Shown here piece by piece: positions 4,454-11,689 of a stretch of DNA of 64,000 nucleotides. Numbering within the stretch: position 1 is the stretch's first letter; the number at the start of each line of letters is the position of its first letter. The stretch comes from an uncultured Candidatus Saccharibacteria bacterium (GTDB taxonomy: Bacteria > Patescibacteriota > Minisyncoccia > Phycocordibacterales > UBA918), in contig CAYMIV010000002.1 in NCBI GenBank assembly GCA_964390945.1, positions 1,784 to 65,783 of the forward strand, written 5' to 3'. A program made the translations under genes and the position numbers. The notes under the pieces are model-generated. The model worked only from the letters and a program-made list of their open reading frames with translations, was not told the DNA's origin and searched no databases.

Positions 4454-4745
4454 GAATAGTTCAAGATTGGAGAACTTCTGATTCTAGTGTTACACGATGG
4501 GGTTTTAAGTCAATGTGCATGTGTTGCGTGACAGATTTTCCTTTAGAAAATCGAAGTGCTCTTGTGGCGAAAGGTGTACTGCTCCCGTAGGGAGAATCGA
4601 AACCTGACGGTCACTAAGATTTTCGCCGAATGGCGAATCTCTAAGTGCCGCGGGTCACGCCTCGCGTGTTCGTAAACTCACATCGCTCCGGCGGTTTCGA
4701 TTACCCCACACCGTGCGCAGGCACGGTGTTCCCACCCGCACACAA

Positions 4746-4770
4746 AAAGACCCTTTCGGGTCTTTTTGTC
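4746..4770. terminator. hairpin downstream of the minus-strand tRNA-Gly; also the centre of a longer inverted repeat
   Basis: aaaagaccctttcgggtcttttt; flanking sequences cccacccgcacac / gtgcgggcggggg extend the inverted repeat. Confidence 0.5.
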
Positions 4771-4773
4771 TTG

Positions 4774-4844
4774 TGCGGGCGGGGGTAATCGAAACCCCGA
4801 CTACTGCTTGGAAGGCAGTCGTTTTACCACTAAACCACGCCCGC
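4774..4844 (-). tRNA. tRNA-Gly(UCC)
   Basis: Manual cloverleaf: acceptor GCGGGCG/CGCCCGC, D-arm GTTT-AGTGGTA-AAAC, anticodon stem ACTGC/GCAGT with loop CTTCCAA (anticodon UCC), T-arm GGGGT-TTCGATT-ACCCC, discriminator A; no encoded CCA. Confidence 0.8.
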
Positions 4845-4967
4845 ATGTATTCTTTTGTAAATAATCGAAGTTCTTACAGAACCTGTACACCTTTTGGATA
4901 TTTTACTTCGTTTCCCTCGTAAAATTTCTCAAAAGGTCTTGCGGATTGGGTCCTGTCCCAATCCTCA

Positions 4968-5015
4968 CCCGACTACTGCTTCAGGGCAGTCGTTTTACCA
5001 CTAAACCACGCCCGC
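4968..5015 (-). pseudogene. truncated tRNA-like fragment (paralog of the tRNA-Gly 5' half)
   Basis: About 48 nt nearly identical to the tRNA-Gly acceptor, D-arm and anticodon stem, but with a 6-nt anticodon loop and no T-arm or 3' acceptor strand; followed by the hairpin ggattgggacaggacccaatcc. Confidence 0.5.
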
Positions 5016-5081
5016 GCGAGGTTCGGATGATTCTAACACAGGCGAATTAATGATTAAACCCCATGCTACAATTCTTGTGAC

Positions 5082-6260: not shown

Positions 6261-6330
6261 AAAAACGCCTGGTTCCGCCCACGTAAGGACCCGTCAGCTT
6301 GCTGCGGGGATAGTGAGGCGGACGTTTTTA
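6261..6330. repeat. 70-bp direct repeat, copy 1 (intergenic)
   Basis: aaaaacgcctggttccgcccacgtaaggacccgtcagcttgctgcggggatagtgagg[c/a]ggacgttttta; second copy 161 bp downstream. Confidence 0.85.
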
Positions 6331-6421
6331 CTCGTTCGTCGCAGAATGCCTCGTGGGCGTGCCCCGAGGATGAATGCGACATAAAATTTTAGTATCGTCG
6401 GTGGACGATACTTCTGCGAGC

Positions 6422-6491
6422 AAAAACGCCTGGTTCCGCCCACGTAAGGACCCGTCAGCTTGCTGCGGGGATAGTGAGGAGGACGTTTTTA
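6422..6491. repeat. 70-bp direct repeat, copy 2 (supplies the last 12 codons and stop of the anti-sigma-like gene)
   Basis: Near-identical to 6261..6330 (1 mismatch); its reverse complement encodes ...KNVLLTIPAAS*. Confidence 0.85.
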
Positions 6492-7852
6492 TTTGTTGCA
6501 CCCTGTATTTCTTCTGTTGGCAGCATGGCGGAGTTCACCTCTTCTTCGGGCACTGCCTCTGTTGTCGTACCTGGTGTTTCGACATCTGCCGGGATGTCGT
6601 TCGGCAGTTGTGATTCAGAGAGTGGGGCGGTCTGCGTGAGTAGGTCAAGATCATGAGCAAGCGCCATTGCCTGCGCAATTGTTGCCTCTGCCCCATCGAT
6701 ATCATTGGCAGCGAAAGAGGTTGTTGCGCTGTTGATAAGCACTGAGAGTTCCGTCATGCCGAGCAAAACCTTTTCTGCAATTTCCACCCCCTCAAGAAGT
6801 GCGAGTCGCCCCGTGATAAGCGTACTTGTCGCAATAAGTGAGTCGAGGTTCATCTTTGCCGATGCGGCACGTTCTTCGATGGTAGGAATGATAGGAACGA
6901 GCGTTTCAAGTGCAACTGATTCACGAACATCGATATCAGTCATGAATACGATGAGTTTCTGAACAAGGCCGAGCGCACCCATAAGTTCTGACACAGCAGC
7001 GGATTCGTCGGTGGTGCGTGTATTTTCCGCTTCGAGAATAAGGCGGTCGATGTCTGCGAGGCGGCGAGTCATGTCGCCCTGCTCTTCTTGCGTAGCAATC
7101 TTTTTTACCACCTCGAGGAGTTCGTAGGCGCGCGTGGTCTCAAGTTCGATACGTGCCGAAAGACCATCATACGAAGGCGCAGTCGGGTCTTGGTTTTCAG
7201 CAACCCGTTCTCGGGCAGTGTTGACCACATCGATGATTTCGGCAACAGCCGCTTGAGATTCTTCTGTTGATCCGGTATCAAGTACCGCAGATTGTACTTC
7301 TAGCGCCGAACCGAGTGTGACCTGGGCAATTGCAGCCTCTTCCGCATTATTCGTCCGGAGCTCGGCGATACCATTCTGTGCGGCATCTGCGTGAATTTTA
7401 ACGGTTTCTGCAAGTTCGGCACTTACCTCTTTTGTGAGTTTTCCTTCTTCCGCAAGAAGTCGTGCCTCCGAAATTCGCCGTTCCATGAGTTTGGTTTCGA
7501 ACACAACTTTTTCATAGGGAGAATTTGCAAACTGGGATTGGATTTCTTCGTTCACACCAGTTTTTACGGCATAGAGAACGTCTCCCGGAACGGATTGTTC
7601 TGCGACAAAGGGAATGATGATGAAGACTATTGACGCGAGGACGCCGGCTGCAATGCGAACCGGGAGCGAATTGAATGGCAATATGAAAAAGTACGGTGAA
7701 TGAATCGATTCGGCGGGTATTGATTCCGCTTTTTTCGGAAGCGGATGATATTCCATATACGACAAAACGCGCTCACGAAGTTCACGCCGTTCAAGCGCCC
7801 GCAATCGGACTTTTTCTGCATATTTTTGTAAATCAGTTTCGAAAGATTTCAT
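6455..7852 (-). CDS. membrane-anchored anti-sigma-like protein (DUF5667-like helical ectodomain)
   Basis: Immediately downstream of the ECF sigma gene; cytoplasmic N-terminus, single TM (IAAGVLASIVFIIIPFV), long helical Ala/Glu-rich extracytoplasmic domain. Confidence 0.5.
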   Translation of the reverse strand: MKSFETDLQKYAEKVRLRALERRELRERVLSYMEYHPLPKKAESIPAESIHSPYFFILPFNSLPVRIAAGVLASIVFIIIPFVAEQSVPGDVLYAVKTGVNEEIQSQFANSPYEKVVFETKLMERRISEARLLAEEGKLTKEVSAELAETVKIHADAAQNGIAELRTNNAEEAAIAQVTLGSALEVQSAVLDTGSTEESQAAVAEIIDVVNTARERVAENQDPTAPSYDGLSARIELETTRAYELLEVVKKIATQEEQGDMTRRLADIDRLILEAENTRTTDESAAVSELMGALGLVQKLIVFMTDIDVRESVALETLVPIIPTIEERAASAKMNLDSLIATSTLITGRLALLEGVEIAEKVLLGMTELSVLINSATTSFAANDIDGAEATIAQAMALAHDLDLLTQTAPLSESQLPNDIPADVETPGTTTEAVPEEEVNSAMLPTEEIQGATNKNVLLTIPAAS

Positions 7853-9493: not shown

Positions 9494-9520
9494 ATATTTG
9501 GTGTTTGTCGGGGAGCCGGG
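9494..9520. repeat. partial duplicate of the tRNA-Pro 3' end plus downstream flank (direct repeat with 9648..9676)
   Basis: atatttggtgtttgtcggggagccggg versus atatttttggtgtttgtcggggagccggg at the real tRNA. Confidence 0.8.
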
Positions 9521-9647
9521 TGAGACAGTCCGCGCGGACTGTCGCAAGACCTTGAGCAGTTGCTGCGAAAGGTGTACAGCGACTGTAAGGCGGCGAACTT
9601 TGTTCGATTCCCTTTTCAAACATCAAAAACATTCAACGCGAGGCCGA
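9521..9647. repeat. 127-bp insert bracketed by the tRNA-Pro 3'-end direct repeats; shares the repeat module with 10726..10812 and 4564..4603
   Basis: Starts tgaga, then hairpin cagtccgcgcggactg, then cgcaagaccttgagca...gcgaaaggtgtac; the same blocks recur at the tRNA-Gly(GCC) locus. Confidence 0.5.
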
Positions 9648-9663
9648 ATATTTTTGGTGTTTG

Positions 9664-9734
9664 TCGGGGAGCCGGGAATCGAACCCGGACCTCATGGTCC
9701 CAAACCATGAACACTACCACTATGCTACACCCCG
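9664..9734 (-). tRNA. tRNA-Pro(UGG)
   Basis: Manual cloverleaf: acceptor CGGGGTG/CTCCCCG (one T-T mismatch at 6:67), anticodon stem CATGG/CCATG with loop TTTGGGA (anticodon UGG), T-arm CCGGG-TTCGATT-CCCGG. Confidence 0.72.
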
Positions 9735-9884
9735 AATTTTGCCAGAGCATATTAACACATAGCAGCATATTTCCATAAATATTATTCACAATAGTAAGAT
9801 TGCGTGGTTTGTGGTGACAAACTGTATAGAGAGAAGAACTATTCAAAAAATATATTGGGTTTGATTATGATGTTTCACATGAAA

Positions 9885-10283
9885 CTAATCAATAATAATA
9901 TTTTCAATAATTTTGACTCTTGCATACTTTTCACGTGAAACAATTTTTACAGCAATGACATCAATTTGAAATTTGCCATTATAATTGCTTGAAGTTAACC
10001 AGGTTTCAATAACCCTTGCAATTCGACACAGTTTATCATTTCGAACCTTGTCTTCAGGGCGCCACGTTTCATGTGAAACCGCATACTCAAGATCAGACAT
10101 CGTTTCATATGAAACAGATTTAACTTCAACAAAATGAACCACGTCGCCTAATAGCGAAATAATATCGATTTCACCCCATTTTTTGAAATAATTTCTTTCA
10201 ACTATTTTGTGCCTCCTTGAAACAAGCCATTTTGCAGCGATATCTTCACCAATTTTGCCGATAATTTTATTGTCGGTCATCAA
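9885..10283 (-). CDS. YraN/UPF0102-like endonuclease-fold protein (PD-(D/E)xK-like)
   Basis: Core GEDIAAKWLVSRRHKIVERNYFKKWGEIDIISL...VHFVEVKS resembles the UPF0102/YraN family; it carries an internal insertion with repeated VS[RHY]E[KT] motifs. Confidence 0.5.
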   Translation of the reverse strand: MMTDNKIIGKIGEDIAAKWLVSRRHKIVERNYFKKWGEIDIISLLGDVVHFVEVKSVSYETMSDLEYAVSHETWRPEDKVRNDKLCRIARVIETWLTSSNYNGKFQIDVIAVKIVSREKYARVKIIENIIID

Positions 10284-10707
10284 GATATTATATCATTCGA
10301 TTAAAATTACTGGCGTGGCGTTTCACGTGAAACGTTACTTTCCAAATATGACGTGTGCACAACTAATTTTTACCCATATTTTAAGCCGTATAGTTAAGGA
10401 CATTCAGTGTTTATGTCTATGTCCTTTATACACATATTAAGGTGTTTGTTCACAGTTCGATGGTGGTTTTGTGAATGTGCTATTTCGCCAAACTTTAGTT
10501 ATGGTTCAGGATATTGGACCAGGCGTACATTCCAGGAGAATTCTATTTAACTCCTTTTGAGGTTTAAATTCGCGTGAATTTTGTATTTGATGTGCATTTT
10601 GAATCTAAGGCTCACACAGCGATTTTGATGCTTTCGGCGTGGCGAAGGATGGGGCATCGCCCCGATTCACATAAGCGAAACGACCTGAAAACATGTTCAG
10701 GTCGTTT

Positions 10708-10812
10708 CGTTTTGTGCGGCCAGGGTGAGAAGCAATCAATATTGCTTCGCAAGACCTTGAGCATGAATATGCGAAAGGTGTACTGCTCCCGTAGGGAGAA
10801 TCGAAACTTACA
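10708..10812. repeat. partial tRNA-Gly(GCC) 3'-end copy plus the shared repeat module
   Basis: ttttgtgcggccaggg, then tgaga, hairpin agcaatcaatattgcttc, cgcaagaccttgagca, gcgaaaggtgtactgctcccgtagggagaatcgaaac (the last block is identical to 4564..4603). Confidence 0.55.
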
Positions 10813-10881
10813 GTTTCAGTGCAGGTTGTCGCTATTTTCTGCAAAATAGCTGTCAACCTTTTCGATTCTCCAGCCCAAAAG

Positions 10882-10917
10882 GAAAGTACCAGATGTAAAA
10901 ACTGGTACTTTCTTTTT
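10882..10917. terminator. terminator hairpin downstream of the minus-strand tRNA-Gly(GCC)
   Basis: gaaagtaccag-atgtaaaaa-ctggtactttc followed by ttttt. Confidence 0.65.
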
Positions 10918-10918
10918 G

Positions 10919-10989
10919 TGCGGCCAGGGAGAATCGAACTCCCGACTAATCCTTGGCAAGGACTCGTTATACCACTTAACCATGGCCGC
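10919..10989 (-). tRNA. tRNA-Gly(GCC)
   Basis: Acceptor GCGGCCA/TGGCCGC, anticodon stem AGTCC/GGATT with loop TTGCCAA (anticodon GCC), T-arm GGGAG-TTCGATT-CTCCC, discriminator A. Confidence 0.85.
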
Positions 10990-11345: not shown

Positions 11346-11617
11346 GGAAATCTCCTCGGTGTTCCACGTGCAACACTACTTGAAGGAGCGGGGAAGTGCA
11401 AGGTGCACATATCCAAATGTGGTCACAAATCACTAGGTATCTTTGTTCGCTTCACTCCAAACATACTAAGTGTTCTCGACCCCACCTCGACATTTTTCTT
11501 TCTTTATTGAAAGAAAAATAAGCCTGCGTTTGAACACGCGTACGCAAGTGAAGCATTTCACTTGCTAGACTCAAAAACCATGCTTTCTTAAAAGAAAGGT
11601 TTTTGAGTCTACGCGTG

Positions 11618-11689
11618 TGCACCCACCAGGACTCGAACCTGGCACGACGGTTCCGAAGACCGTAATGATATCCACTTCACCATGGGTGC
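11618..11689 (-). tRNA. tRNA-Arg(UCG)
   Basis: Acceptor GCACCCA/TGGGTGC, anticodon stem ACGGT/ACCGT with loop CTTCGGA (anticodon UCG), T-arm CCAGG-TTCGAGT-CCTGG. It overlaps the spurious 5' extension of the cca ORF. Confidence 0.8.

What the first reader, a model, noticed from the sequence alone, without database searches (positions are those of the whole stretch)
9494..9734. tRNA-Pro 3' end plus flank duplicated around a 127-bp insert that shares a repeat module with the tRNA-Gly(GCC) locus
The last 13 nt of tRNA-Pro plus 16 nt of downstream flank (9648..9676) recur as a direct repeat at 9494..9520, bracketing a 127-bp segment (9521-9647). That segment begins with tgaga plus a hairpin and contains cgcaagaccttgagca and gcgaaaggtgtac. 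At the tRNA-Gly(GCC) locus, a partial copy of that tRNA's 3' end (gtgcggccaggg, 10714-10725) is followed by the same blocks: tgaga, hairpin, cgcaagaccttgagca, gcgaaaggtgtactgctcccgtagggagaatcgaaac. The last block recurs a third time at 4564..4603 beside tRNA-Gly(UCC). The pattern is a partial tRNA 3' end, a conserved junction and a shared module, found at two different tRNA genes. This points to a small tRNA-targeting insertion element family or repeated site-specific recombination scars. Alternatively the modules may be tRNA-derived small RNAs.
Basis: seen in the sequence. Interest (0 to 1): 0.65.

Follow-up and report, generated by a model that had tools for sequence, protein, structure and literature searches.

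The report
Small folded repeat beside tRNA genes
The duplicated end of the tRNA-Pro gene is real, and the DNA between the two copies holds one copy of a roughly 90-base, three-hairpin element that recurs in well over a hundred genomes of ultra-small (Patescibacteria/CPR) bacteria, matched no Rfam family, and behaves like a small duplicating RNA-type element that sits in spare, broken copies of tRNA and other genes.

Summary
A 27-nt direct repeat (9494-9520 / 9650-9676), made of the tRNA-Pro 3' end plus trailer, brackets an insert. The shared blocks recur at the tRNA-Gly(GCC) and tRNA-Gly(UCC) loci.

The "module" (M) is an element of about 85-110 nt: (RR)GUGAG, hairpin P1, CGCAAG, hairpin P2 (ACCUU...AAGGU), GUAC-NG, hairpin P3 with a GUA triloop. 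One capped pattern scan found at least 120 loci, nearly all in Patescibacteria MAGs. There were none in viral contigs and no Rfam family matched.

P1 and P3 covary strongly (98% of cells paired; 300 double changes against 77 in shuffles). The fold is strand-specific: the forward strand is more stable in 105 of 114 copies.

M lies inside partial, decaying duplicates of tRNA, 5S rRNA or protein-gene starts, next to the intact gene. It has a sharp 5' edge. Filled and empty sites both occur. No gene is consistently linked to it.

The long repeat is not a target-site duplication. A copy of the tRNA 3' end downstream of tRNA-Pro is also found in relatives, where it carries other small elements.

Best reading: a new CPR-specific family of non-autonomous, structured, duplicative elements. 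How it moves and what it does are unknown.

The parts
9494..9520 (+). Left copy (X) of the antisense tRNA-Pro 3' end (TCGGGGAGCCGGG) plus 14 nt of trailer. It abuts the 5' edge of M.
   Evidence: D11 (27 nt, 96%). (extends to 36 nt, with no gap between it and M).
9520..9597 (+). M copy A: GUGAG 9520-9524, P1 9526-9541, (U)CGCAAG 9542-9548, P2 9549-9573, GUAC 9574-9577, degenerate P3 9579-9594.
   Evidence: 61.5 bits, E 4e-14. (alignment and covariation). (fold).
9598..9647 (+). Spacer B, containing a sense T-loop-like piece GTTCGATTCCC (9612-9622). It resembles the right flank of the F-type element at tRNA-Pro in L123 (CTTTTCGATTCCCTT).
   Evidence: The homology was read by eye; the alignment is weak.
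9648..9676 (+). Right copy of the repeat: the trailer plus the last 13 nt of the intact tRNA-Pro gene.
9663..9734 (-). Intact tRNA-Pro(UGG).
   Evidence: (64.3 bits).
10673..10725 (+). Terminator-like hairpin (10673-10712) plus a partial antisense copy of the tRNA-Gly(GCC) 3' end (10714-10725). On the minus strand this reads as a tRNA 3' end followed by a terminator.
   Evidence: I9, D5. (56-nt diverged repeat).
10725..10798 (+). M copy B. Its P3 is CUCCC-GUA-GGGAG, whose 3' strand coincides with the flanking antisense T-stem.
   Evidence: 74.3 bits. (canonical three-hairpin fold, z -3.6). (absent at the matching place in L123).
10803..10876 (-). F-type relative of M: AAUCGAAA-AGGUUG...CAACCU-GCAC-UG-GAAAC-UGUAA-GUUUC, flanked by inverted T-loop halves.
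   Evidence: 22.7 bits, E 4e-4, 10795-10944 minus strand. (conserved in L123).
10918..10989 (-). Intact tRNA-Gly(GCC). A two-way terminator hairpin lies at 10873-10921.
   Evidence: (I6).
4870..4968 (-). It has a long P2.
   Evidence: 82.2 bits. (z -5.4).
4969..5016 (-). Pseudo-tRNA-Gly 5' part (positions 1-51, with a 6-nt anticodon loop), fused to M copy C. It duplicates the first 51 nt of the tRNA-Gly(UCC) gene next to it.
   Evidence: 48-nt repeat. (tRNA model 24 bits, below the threshold of 29).
4773..4844 (-). Intact tRNA-Gly(UCC).
4567..4603 (+). Partial M copy D (3' third of M plus AATCGAAAC), 100% identical to 10771-10807.
   Evidence: D7. (25.4 bits).
4604..4733 (-). An 'E-outer' element without M (4692->4604), preceded on the minus strand by an inverted copy of the tRNA-Gly(UCC) 3' end that carries an inserted hairpin (4733->4693).
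   Evidence: (I10, I14). Compared with L034 and L004.

Best explanation
The insert next to tRNA-Pro holds one copy of a previously uncatalogued family, specific to Patescibacteria, of small (about 85-110 nt) elements that encode no protein. I call the element M.

Shown: M has a fixed architecture, namely (RR)GUGAG, hairpin P1, CGCAAG, hairpin P2, GUAC-NG, and hairpin P3 with a GUA triloop. The stems are kept through compensatory changes. The fold is specific to one strand, the one that reads GUGAG. M occurs in several copies per genome and in unrelated sequence contexts.

Shown: M sits inside partial duplicates of genes (tRNA in either orientation, 5S rRNA, a protein-gene start) that lie beside the intact gene. 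Its 5' junction is sharp and follows a purine-rich ..RRG. About 2-3 nt of the target are lost and there is no target-site duplication. Both filled and empty sites exist.

Inferred: M spreads by insertion through a single-stranded intermediate, either RNA or one DNA strand, whose fold is recognised by a factor encoded elsewhere in the genome. Insertions into essential single-copy RNA genes survive only where a local duplicate exists, so what remains today is a broken copy, then M, then the intact gene. In this window the broken copy is the downstream repeat of the tRNA-Pro 3' end, which in relatives carries other small elements.

Unresolved: whether M also serves the host.
For: An HMM finds 138 copies in 119 sources, and 16 sources hold two or more copies within 8 kb.

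Structure: 98.3% of cells form standard pairs. There are 300 double-change cells against 77 +/- 7.5 in shuffles and 27-67 in the slid controls; covariation score 0.456 against 0.115.

Strand: the forward strand folds more stably in 105 of 114 copies, on average by 4.1 kcal/mol, p = 7e-19.

Sharp edges: the two copies in L056 are alike from GTGAG to the end of P3 and have unrelated flanks. Position -1 is G in 112 of 114 copies, and -2 and -3 are purines.

Insertion into gene copies: 16 of 125 pattern matches have the left flank repeated 0-160 nt downstream with no gap to M. The sequence after M continues the interrupted gene in L002, L038, L073, L017, L113 and window copy C.

Filled versus empty sites: L004 has three E-outer units without M and one with it. 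The tRNA-Gly(GCC) downstream unit carries M in the window and not in L123. The window's own E-outer lacks M, while its relative L034 has M at that position.

No coding partner: the most frequent neighbouring protein cluster is in only 10 of 120 loci and is a housekeeping gene. The window's neighbours are ClpP, RNase Y, a protease, a sigma factor, CorA and YraN.

Not a known RNA: no Rfam family matches at the gathering threshold or at E <= 10.
Against: No transposase, reverse transcriptase or integrase was linked to M. A Y1/IS200-like ORF is present in only 4 of 120 loci, and Patescibacteria are reported to lack group II introns (PMC13011429).

The three copies in the window share only the conserved core; P1, the tip of P2 and P3 are all different. 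So there was no recent burst, and each copy looks individually maintained, which fits a host function better than a parasite.

The locus is 100% identical in contigs from two other samples of the same species, so there is no polymorphism within the species.

An M copy follows a closely similar tRNA-Pro-end fragment in L123, whose CorA is 71% identical. That could mean long-term retention.

M is co-oriented with the nearest tRNA gene 31 times against 7. That suggests co-transcription with tRNAs, and possibly a function.
Confidence: 0.5

Rival explanations
1. M is a functional host RNA module and not a parasite. It would be a protein- or RNA-binding scaffold transcribed together with the gene fragment on its 5' side. 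In the window's configuration (copies A and B, and also L112, L017 and L113) that fragment is antisense to the 3' end and trailer of a tRNA or of 5S rRNA. The transcript would therefore be a guide plus a scaffold that pairs with the precursor's 3' end, for processing, quality control or regulation. The repeat would be kept because the guide has to match its target.
For: The core nucleotides are invariant across many Paceibacteria/Parcubacteria lineages. Copies within one genome have diverged everywhere except in the core and in the base pairing. The fold is strand-specific. M is co-oriented with tRNA genes 31:7. M and a tRNA-Pro-end fragment are retained in L123 at 71% CorA identity. The left repeat abuts M with no gap.
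Against: The fragment next to M is sense in many cases (5' parts of tRNAs in L002, L020, L038, L073, L086 and window copy C; a protein-gene start in L007), where it cannot pair with the gene's own transcript over more than the acceptor strand. About 85% of copies have no detectable repeat. In L123 the supposed guide has decayed relative to its tRNA (TGGGGAGTCGGG against TCGGGGAGCCGGG). Copy A's P3 is degenerate. L122 has no M near tRNA-Pro, L124 has only a weak partial hit cut by the locus start, about 3.5 kb from it, and L121 carries only a variant that R1 does not score.
Confidence: 0.22
2. The repeat and the insert are leftovers of site-specific integration into the 3' part of the tRNA gene. 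The repeated tRNA end would be the attL/attR pair of a tyrosine-integrase element that crosses over in the T-loop, and the present insert a deleted remnant or an integrase-less satellite.
For: The repeat starts at the boundary between T-loop and T-stem and runs to the 3' end of the tRNA and beyond, as at many integrase sites in tRNA genes (my own knowledge: Williams 2002, Nucleic Acids Res). The same layout recurs at tRNA-Gly(GCC), in L004, L123 and L124.
Against: No integrase was found among the ten window ORFs scanned against Pfam or as a recurrent neighbour. M also lies in D-arm sites, 5S rRNA, a protein-gene start and other elements. The repeats run 16-45 nt past the tRNA end and include terminators. 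There are no matches in viral contigs. The covarying, strand-specific hairpins are not a property of att sites. This idea could still hold for the E-outer and F-type units, but it does not explain M.
Confidence: 0.1
3. M is a REP-like or IS200/IS605-type single-strand DNA element: hairpins preceded by GTGAG and GTAC-AG, moved in trans by a Y1 (HUH) tyrosine transposase of the RAYT or TnpA kind.
For: The structure is strand-specific. There are no terminal inverted repeats and no target-site duplication. Short conserved motifs lie 5' of hairpins, as GTAG does in REPs (my own knowledge: Ton-Hoang 2012, Messing 2012). A Y1-transposase-like ORF (HxH motif, YIHLNP) is present in 4 of 120 loci, once 212 nt downstream of M.
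Against: Four of 120 is only weakly above chance (about 1 expected, by my rough estimate). The window holds no such gene (tblastn). P1 and P3 are unlike each other. The 3' end has no conserved cleavage motif, and the 5' flank is only RRG. At 85-110 nt with three hairpins, M does not have the anatomy of a REP.
Confidence: 0.12
4. M is a very small intron (self-splicing or enzyme-dependent) in tRNA and other genes.
For: It begins with GUGAG and often ends in ..AG. It interrupts tRNA sequences at defined places. Patescibacteria are rich in tRNA introns (PMC13011429).
Against: No interrupted copy would give an intact gene once M is removed: anticodon loops are altered and 3' parts are missing. M also lies antisense to the interrupted gene (window copies A and B, L017, L112, L113). 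An intact gene copy is present nearby. The Rfam intron models do not match.
Confidence: 0.03

Closest known systems
REP / REPIN elements with RAYT (Y1 HUH) transposases
   Same: Both are short, multi-copy, non-coding, hairpin-forming elements in intergenic DNA. Both have a short conserved motif 5' of a hairpin and no target-site duplication. Both would be acted on by a single-copy enzyme encoded elsewhere.
   Different: M is 3-4 times longer. It has three unlike hairpins and about 20 invariant unpaired bases. It is conserved across many CPR lineages rather than within one species. The link to a Y1 transposase is weak (4 of 120 loci).
Miniature derivatives of IS200/IS605 (PATEs) and their OMEGA guide-RNA scaffolds
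   Same: Both have a strand-specific fold, no inverted terminal repeats and insertion next to a short motif. In both, a scaffold directly abuts flanking sequence that could serve as a guide.
   Different: No tnpA, tnpB or iscB was found nearby. The end hairpins are not alike. No Rfam model reached E <= 10 in the tested M regions. The flanking repeats lie in cis and are of variable length.
Integrative elements that target the T-loop or 3' end of tRNA genes, and integrase-less derivatives such as CIMEs
   Same: In both, a direct repeat of the tRNA 3' portion brackets the inserted DNA and the gene is left intact.
   Different: The insert is only about 130-190 bp and has no integrase. The repeat extends past the tRNA end. 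M also occurs away from tRNA 3' ends and in both orientations.
Group I introns in Patescibacteria tRNA genes (PMC13011429)
   Same: Same phylum. Both are structured RNA elements that interrupt tRNA sequences and make tRNA genes hard to annotate.
   Different: Those introns lie at position 35/36, are over 200 nt long, match the Rfam model Intron_gpI and splice out precisely. M is about 90 nt, matches no intron model, and interrupts only non-functional copies.
Ribozymes and processing elements next to tRNAs (for example HDV-like 'theta' ribozymes downstream of phage tRNAs; my own knowledge, Kienbeck et al. 2024)
   Same: Both are small structured RNAs physically tied to tRNA ends, with a sharp 5' edge that does not depend on the upstream sequence.
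   Different: M cannot form the HDV-like P1 and P1.1 pairings (by inspection). No known self-cleaving family reaches E <= 10 in the M regions scanned at that threshold. Self-cleavage was not tested.

Membership tests
Any Rfam 15 RNA family | Score at or above the family's gathering threshold. | tested here: not met
   Only tRNA, rRNA, a group I intron and an L10 leader were found in the window and 20 loci, none of them over M. At E <= 10 only chance-level miRNA or sRNA hits appear.
REP/RAYT system | A RAYT (Y1 transposase) gene in the same genome, typically flanked by the repeats. | tested here: inconclusive
   A Y1-like ORF lies in 4 of 120 8-kb loci and none in the 64-kb window. Whole genomes could not be searched.
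REP/RAYT system | A single imperfect palindrome of about 20-40 nt preceded by a conserved GTAG-type tetranucleotide. | tested here: not met
   M has three different hairpins over 85-110 nt. The motifs GUGAG and GUAC-NG precede P1 and P3.
IS200/IS605-derived miniature elements | Similar subterminal hairpins at both ends and conserved cleavage motifs at the left flank and the right end. | tested here: not met
   P1 and P3 are unrelated. The left flank is only RRG, and the right end is variable.
MITE (DDE transposase-dependent) | Terminal inverted repeats and a target-site duplication of fixed length. | tested here: not met
   There are no terminal inverted repeats. Flanking repeats are present in only 16 of 125 pattern matches and vary from 13 to 97 nt, and the sequence after M continues the target with 2-3 nt lost.
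tRNA-targeting integrative element (tyrosine integrase) | An integrase gene inside the element, or a demonstrable attP partner. | tested here: not met
   The insert is 127-190 bp. No integrase was found among ten scanned window ORFs or as a recurrent neighbour. No viral contig matched.
tRNA-targeting integrative element (tyrosine integrase) | A direct repeat limited to the tRNA 3' segment, starting in the T-loop or anticodon loop. | tested here: inconclusive
   The repeat starts at the edge between T-stem and T-loop, which fits. But it runs 16-45 nt beyond the tRNA end.
Intron (group I, group II, or archaeal-type) | Removing the element restores a functional gene. | tested here: not met
   The interrupted copies have altered anticodon loops or lack their 3' or 5' parts. 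Several insertions are antisense to the gene.
Self-cleaving ribozyme | Site-specific self-scission of the transcript. | not testable with these tools
   No known ribozyme model matches. Cleavage needs an in vitro transcription assay.

The most novel reading that the evidence does not exclude
M is the conserved scaffold of a CPR-specific class of guide-carrying small RNAs. The gene fragment fused to its 5' edge (here antisense to the 3' end and trailer of pre-tRNA-Pro and pre-tRNA-Gly, and elsewhere to 5S rRNA) would direct an M-bound factor, or M's own catalytic activity, to the matching precursor or gene. Together with the related E-outer and F-type units, which are closed by a stem resembling the tRNA acceptor and T stems and have their own terminators, this would be a new RNA-guided layer of tRNA/rRNA end processing or gene targeting in bacteria with minimal genomes.
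Probability: 0.1. Interest if true: 0.85.

Novelty: new variant of a known kind. Interest (0 to 1): 0.62.

Why it matters
Patescibacteria have tiny genomes with very little spare DNA. Even so, they keep several copies of this roughly 90-nt element, with invariant junction bases and covarying stems, across many lineages. It matched no Rfam family, and the four literature searches I ran, one of them for its core sequences, found no description of it.

If it is mobile, it is a protein-less element whose means of moving is unknown, in a phylum reported to lack group II introns. It also explains the broken tRNA and 5S rRNA gene fragments that complicate annotation of CPR genomes. If it is functional, it is a new structured RNA class tied to tRNA genes.

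The same loci also show a recurrent layout: tRNA, terminator, inverted copy of the tRNA end, small element, second copy of the tRNA end. This layout has no explanation yet.

Tried and rejected
1. Known RNA families. Rfam searches at the gathering threshold and at E <= 10 on the window and the loci found nothing over M.

2. My early guess that the 'GAAAGCCGGAGC' context was RNase P, tmRNA or SRP RNA. No model supports it, and the sequence turned out to be an antisense T-loop joined to another element.

3. Long target-site duplication, or target-primed reverse transcription. Rejected because the sequence after M continues the interrupted gene.

4. The idea that the 3' strand of P3 comes from the target, as a guide-like pairing. 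It holds for window copy B and partly for the E-outer class, but not in general. Mutual information shows no coupling between the flank and the interior of M.

5. A diversity-generating retroelement (template and variable repeats). The differences between repeat copies are not adenine-specific.

6. HDV-like and hammerhead folds. By inspection the required pairings and core motifs are absent.

7. A linked protein gene. All-against-all clustering of ORFs from 120 loci found no recurrent partner.

8. Phage or plasmid carriage. There were no matches in viral contigs.

9. Closely related strains that could show an empty site at copy A. A metagenome scan for the 21-nt junction found nothing. Contigs of the same species from two other samples are identical.

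10. Literature. Searches for the core sequences and for CPR repeats or ncRNAs found no description.
Full report
**1. What is in the window**

All four tRNA genes of the window lie on the minus strand: Gly(UCC) 4773-4844, Pro(UGG) 9663-9734, Gly(GCC) 10918-10989 and Arg(UCG) 11617-11689. The surrounding genes are ordinary housekeeping genes: ClpP, RNase Y, a trypsin-like protease, a DUF5667 protein, an ECF-type sigma factor, CorA, YraN/UPF0102, an exonuclease-endonuclease-phosphatase (EEP) family nuclease and an ABC ATPase. CorA homologues place the organism among Kaiserbacteria-like Patescibacteria.

9494-9520 and 9650-9676 are 96% identical over 27 nt, and with one indel the match reaches about 36-39 nt. 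The shared blocks are exact. A complete fourth copy was missed: 4968->4870 on the minus strand, fused to the first 51 nt of a second, defective tRNA-Gly (5016->4969) that sits directly upstream of the intact tRNA-Gly(UCC).

**2. The module is a discrete structured element (M)**

Written on the strand that reads GUGAG, every copy has the same layout: (RR)GUGAG, hairpin P1, CGCAAG, hairpin P2 (closed by ACCUU/AAGGU, tip 15-60 nt), GUAC-NG, and hairpin P3 (4-5 bp, with a GUA triloop closed by a covarying pair).

Almost all are Patescibacteria MAGs, including Kaiser-, Zambryski-, Nomura-, Taylor-, Lloyd-, Campbell- and Yonathbacteria, Paceibacteria and Minisyncoccia. Many records are labelled 'uncultured Saccharibacteria'; I did not verify those labels. 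Six records have other labels. L037, L074 and L094 lack the GTGAG lead and look like chance matches. L006, L063 and L104 are contigs of 4.8-6.1 kb in MAGs and probably mis-binned.

In an alignment of 106 copies (A1), 98.3% of cells in the proposed pairs are standard pairs. There are 300 cells with changes on both sides, against 77 +/- 7.5 in shuffles and 27-67 when partners are slid. The covariation score is 0.456 against 0.115. The P2 closing helix never varies in this set, but that was imposed by the search pattern. L104 and the F-type relatives show the compensatory swap ACC/GGU -> AGG/CCU.

The GUGAG strand folds more stably than its complement in 105 of 114 copies, on average by 4.1 kcal/mol, p = 7e-19. 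The structure therefore acts on one strand, as RNA or as single-stranded DNA. Window copies B and C fold into the canonical three hairpins. Copy A, the one in the finding, has a weakened P3.

No Rfam 15 family matches, even at E <= 10. Literature searches, including one for the core sequences, found no description.

**3. Where M sits**

An HMM finds 138 copies in 119 of the sequences held, and 16 of those sources have two or more copies within 8 kb. The window has the densest cluster: three full copies and one partial copy within 6.3 kb, and none in the other 58 kb.

Thirty of 111 copies lie within 400 nt of a tRNA gene. By my estimate of tRNA density (not a tool result), that is roughly five times what chance would give. 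M is co-oriented with nearby tRNA genes in 31 cases against 7. Window copies A and B belong to the antisense minority, along with L112 and L017.

The base before UGAG is G in 112 of 114 copies, and the two bases before that are purines. In 16 of 125 pattern matches the left flank, ending exactly at M, recurs 0-160 nt downstream. The repeated piece is one of the following:
- The 5' part of a tRNA in sense orientation (L001, L002, L020, L038, L073, L086, window copy C).
- The antisense 3' end of a tRNA (window A and B, L017, L112).
- 97 nt of antisense 5S rRNA (L113).
- The first 34 nt of a glycosidase-like gene together with its upstream bases (L007).

The decisive detail is that the sequence after M is often the continuation of the interrupted gene, with 2-3 nt missing. 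This holds for L002, L038 and L073 (anticodon arm), L017, L113 and window copy C (T-loop TTCGATTA). So M is a simple insertion inside a partial, decaying duplicate that lies beside the intact gene. The long repeats are not target-site duplications.

**4. Evidence that M comes and goes**

- One contig (L004) holds four copies of a second small element, 'E-outer' (..CCGGAGC, hairpin, GAGGCGGG | GUCGCGAG, hairpin, CUUGUGAC). Three have nothing at the bar and one has M there.
- The window's own E-outer (4692->4604) is empty, while the relative L034 has M at that place.
- Downstream of tRNA-Gly(GCC), L123 and the window share the same unit. It ends ..GTTTCGATTCTCCCTAC|CCGCA in L123, whereas the window has M (reversed) at the bar.
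- The two L056 copies are nearly identical from GTGAG to the end of P3 and have unrelated flanks.
- M is nested in larger composites inserted in tRNA-Asn fragments (L069, L028).

Against recent activity:
- The window's three copies share only the core.
- Contigs of the same species from two other samples are identical over the tRNA-Pro locus.
- L123 (CorA 71% identical) also has an M directly after a tRNA-Pro-end fragment, GGTGTTTGTGGGGAGTCGGG|TGAGA.

**5. The repeat at tRNA-Pro in context**

Relatives show a recurrent layout downstream of tRNA genes: tRNA, terminator, inverted copy of the tRNA 3' end, a small structured element, a sense copy running from the T-loop to the 3' end, and often a second terminator.

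- At tRNA-Pro the element is F-type in L124 and L123 and E-outer-like in L121. L122 keeps only a short remnant.
- F-type elements are relatives of M: AAUCGAAA-AGGUUG..CAACCU-GCAC/GAAC-NG-hairpin with a UGUAA loop.
- In the window the 127-bp 'insert' consists of a short piece that resembles the flank of such an element (GGGAATCGAAC on the minus strand) plus M in reverse orientation relative to the tRNA. The homology of that short piece was judged by eye.
- The 37-nt identity between 4567-4603 and 10771-10807 shows a recent exchange between the two tRNA-Gly loci.

**6. Mechanism**

Shown: the architecture, the covariation, the strand specificity, the multi-copy distribution restricted to CPR, the sharp 5' edge, insertion into gene duplicates, filled and empty sites, and the absence of a linked gene. 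The commonest neighbouring protein cluster occurs in 10 of 120 loci and is a housekeeping gene, and no viral contig carries M.

Inferred: M spreads through a single-stranded intermediate that is recognised by a factor encoded elsewhere. Insertions in essential RNA genes persist only where a duplicate exists.

The only lead to such a factor is a Y1/IS200-like transposase ORF in 4 of 120 loci, once 212 nt from M. Group II introns, and with them their reverse transcriptases, are reported absent from Patescibacteria (PMC13011429).

The main rival is that M is a host RNA module, possibly a scaffold whose 5'-fused fragment acts as an antisense guide to the 3' ends of tRNA and 5S precursors. It explains the deep conservation and the divergence of copies within one genome. 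It does not explain the sense-oriented fragments or the many copies with no repeat at all.

**7. Verdict**

The interpretation 'small insertion element family' is partly right. 'tRNA-targeting', 'recombination scar' and 'tRNA-derived RNA' are not supported as stated. The element is a new family, and both its mechanism and its function remain open.

Noticed in passing
window 4604-4769 (minus strand); window 10673-10917; also L004 4870-5790, L030 6080-6520, L095 7640-7900, L121 1-300, L123 2056-2240 and 3390-3660, L124 3668-3930: A recurrent layout downstream of tRNA genes: terminator, inverted copy of the tRNA 3' end (acceptor strand, T-stem, T-loop), a small structured element ('E-outer' or 'F-type'), a sense copy from the T-loop to the 3' end, and often its own terminator. 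The two tRNA-end copies can pair into a long stem that resembles the acceptor and T stems. At tRNA-Pro the layout recurs in L121, L123 and L124 but the inserted element differs; L122 keeps only a remnant.
   Followed up: partly
window 6261-6336 and 6422-6497: A 76-nt direct repeat (96% identical). Each copy is a long hairpin flanked by A-run and T-run, in the spacer between the protease gene and the DUF5667 gene. There is no Rfam match. The fold z-scores are only -1.6 and -2.1, so these may simply be duplicated two-way terminators.
   Followed up: partly
window 9873-10333 (six copies), plus 6904-6916 and 11362-11374; L123 2550-3090; L122 295-335: The 13-nt palindrome TTTCACGTGAAAC and close variants occur seven times, six of them inside and around the YraN/UPF0102 gene. 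Relatives have the same palindromes around their yraN gene, both within the coding sequence (..VSHET..) and in the flanking spacers.
   Followed up: no
window 5016-4969 (minus strand); L002 pseudo-tRNA-Asn: The M-interrupted pseudo-tRNA copies are nearly identical to the intact gene except in the anticodon loop. The window's copy has a 6-nt loop CCTGAA where the intact gene has CTTCCAA; L002 has CTGATTCA where the intact gene has CTGTTAA. Three pseudo-copies also share GGTGGAG in place of GGTAGAG at the junction.
   Followed up: no
window 4708-4729; L121 about 222-246: A GC-rich hairpin of 22-25 nt is inserted exactly between the T-stem strand and the acceptor strand in the inverted copies of tRNA 3' ends (ACACCGTGCGCAGGCACGGTGT in the window, ACGTGAGCAAAGCAGTTTGCTCACT in L121).
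   Followed up: no
L123 3664-3735 compared with window 9663-9734: The tRNA-Pro gene lies between yraN and corA in both genomes but in opposite orientation relative to those genes. This implies an inversion of the tRNA-bearing spacer, which is full of inverted tRNA-end copies.
   Followed up: no
L106 3281-4004; L061, L107, L001: Y1 (IS200/RAYT-like) transposase ORFs lie in four of the M-bearing loci. In L106 the gene starts 212 nt downstream of an M copy on the same strand.
   Followed up: partly
L069 520-700 (minus strand); L028 about 1040-1300: A composite insertion in tRNA-Asn 5' fragments: UGAGA-P1-CGCAAG is joined directly to an E-outer element that itself carries a full M, after which the tRNA sequence resumes. 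The same composite occurs in two different MAGs.
   Followed up: partly
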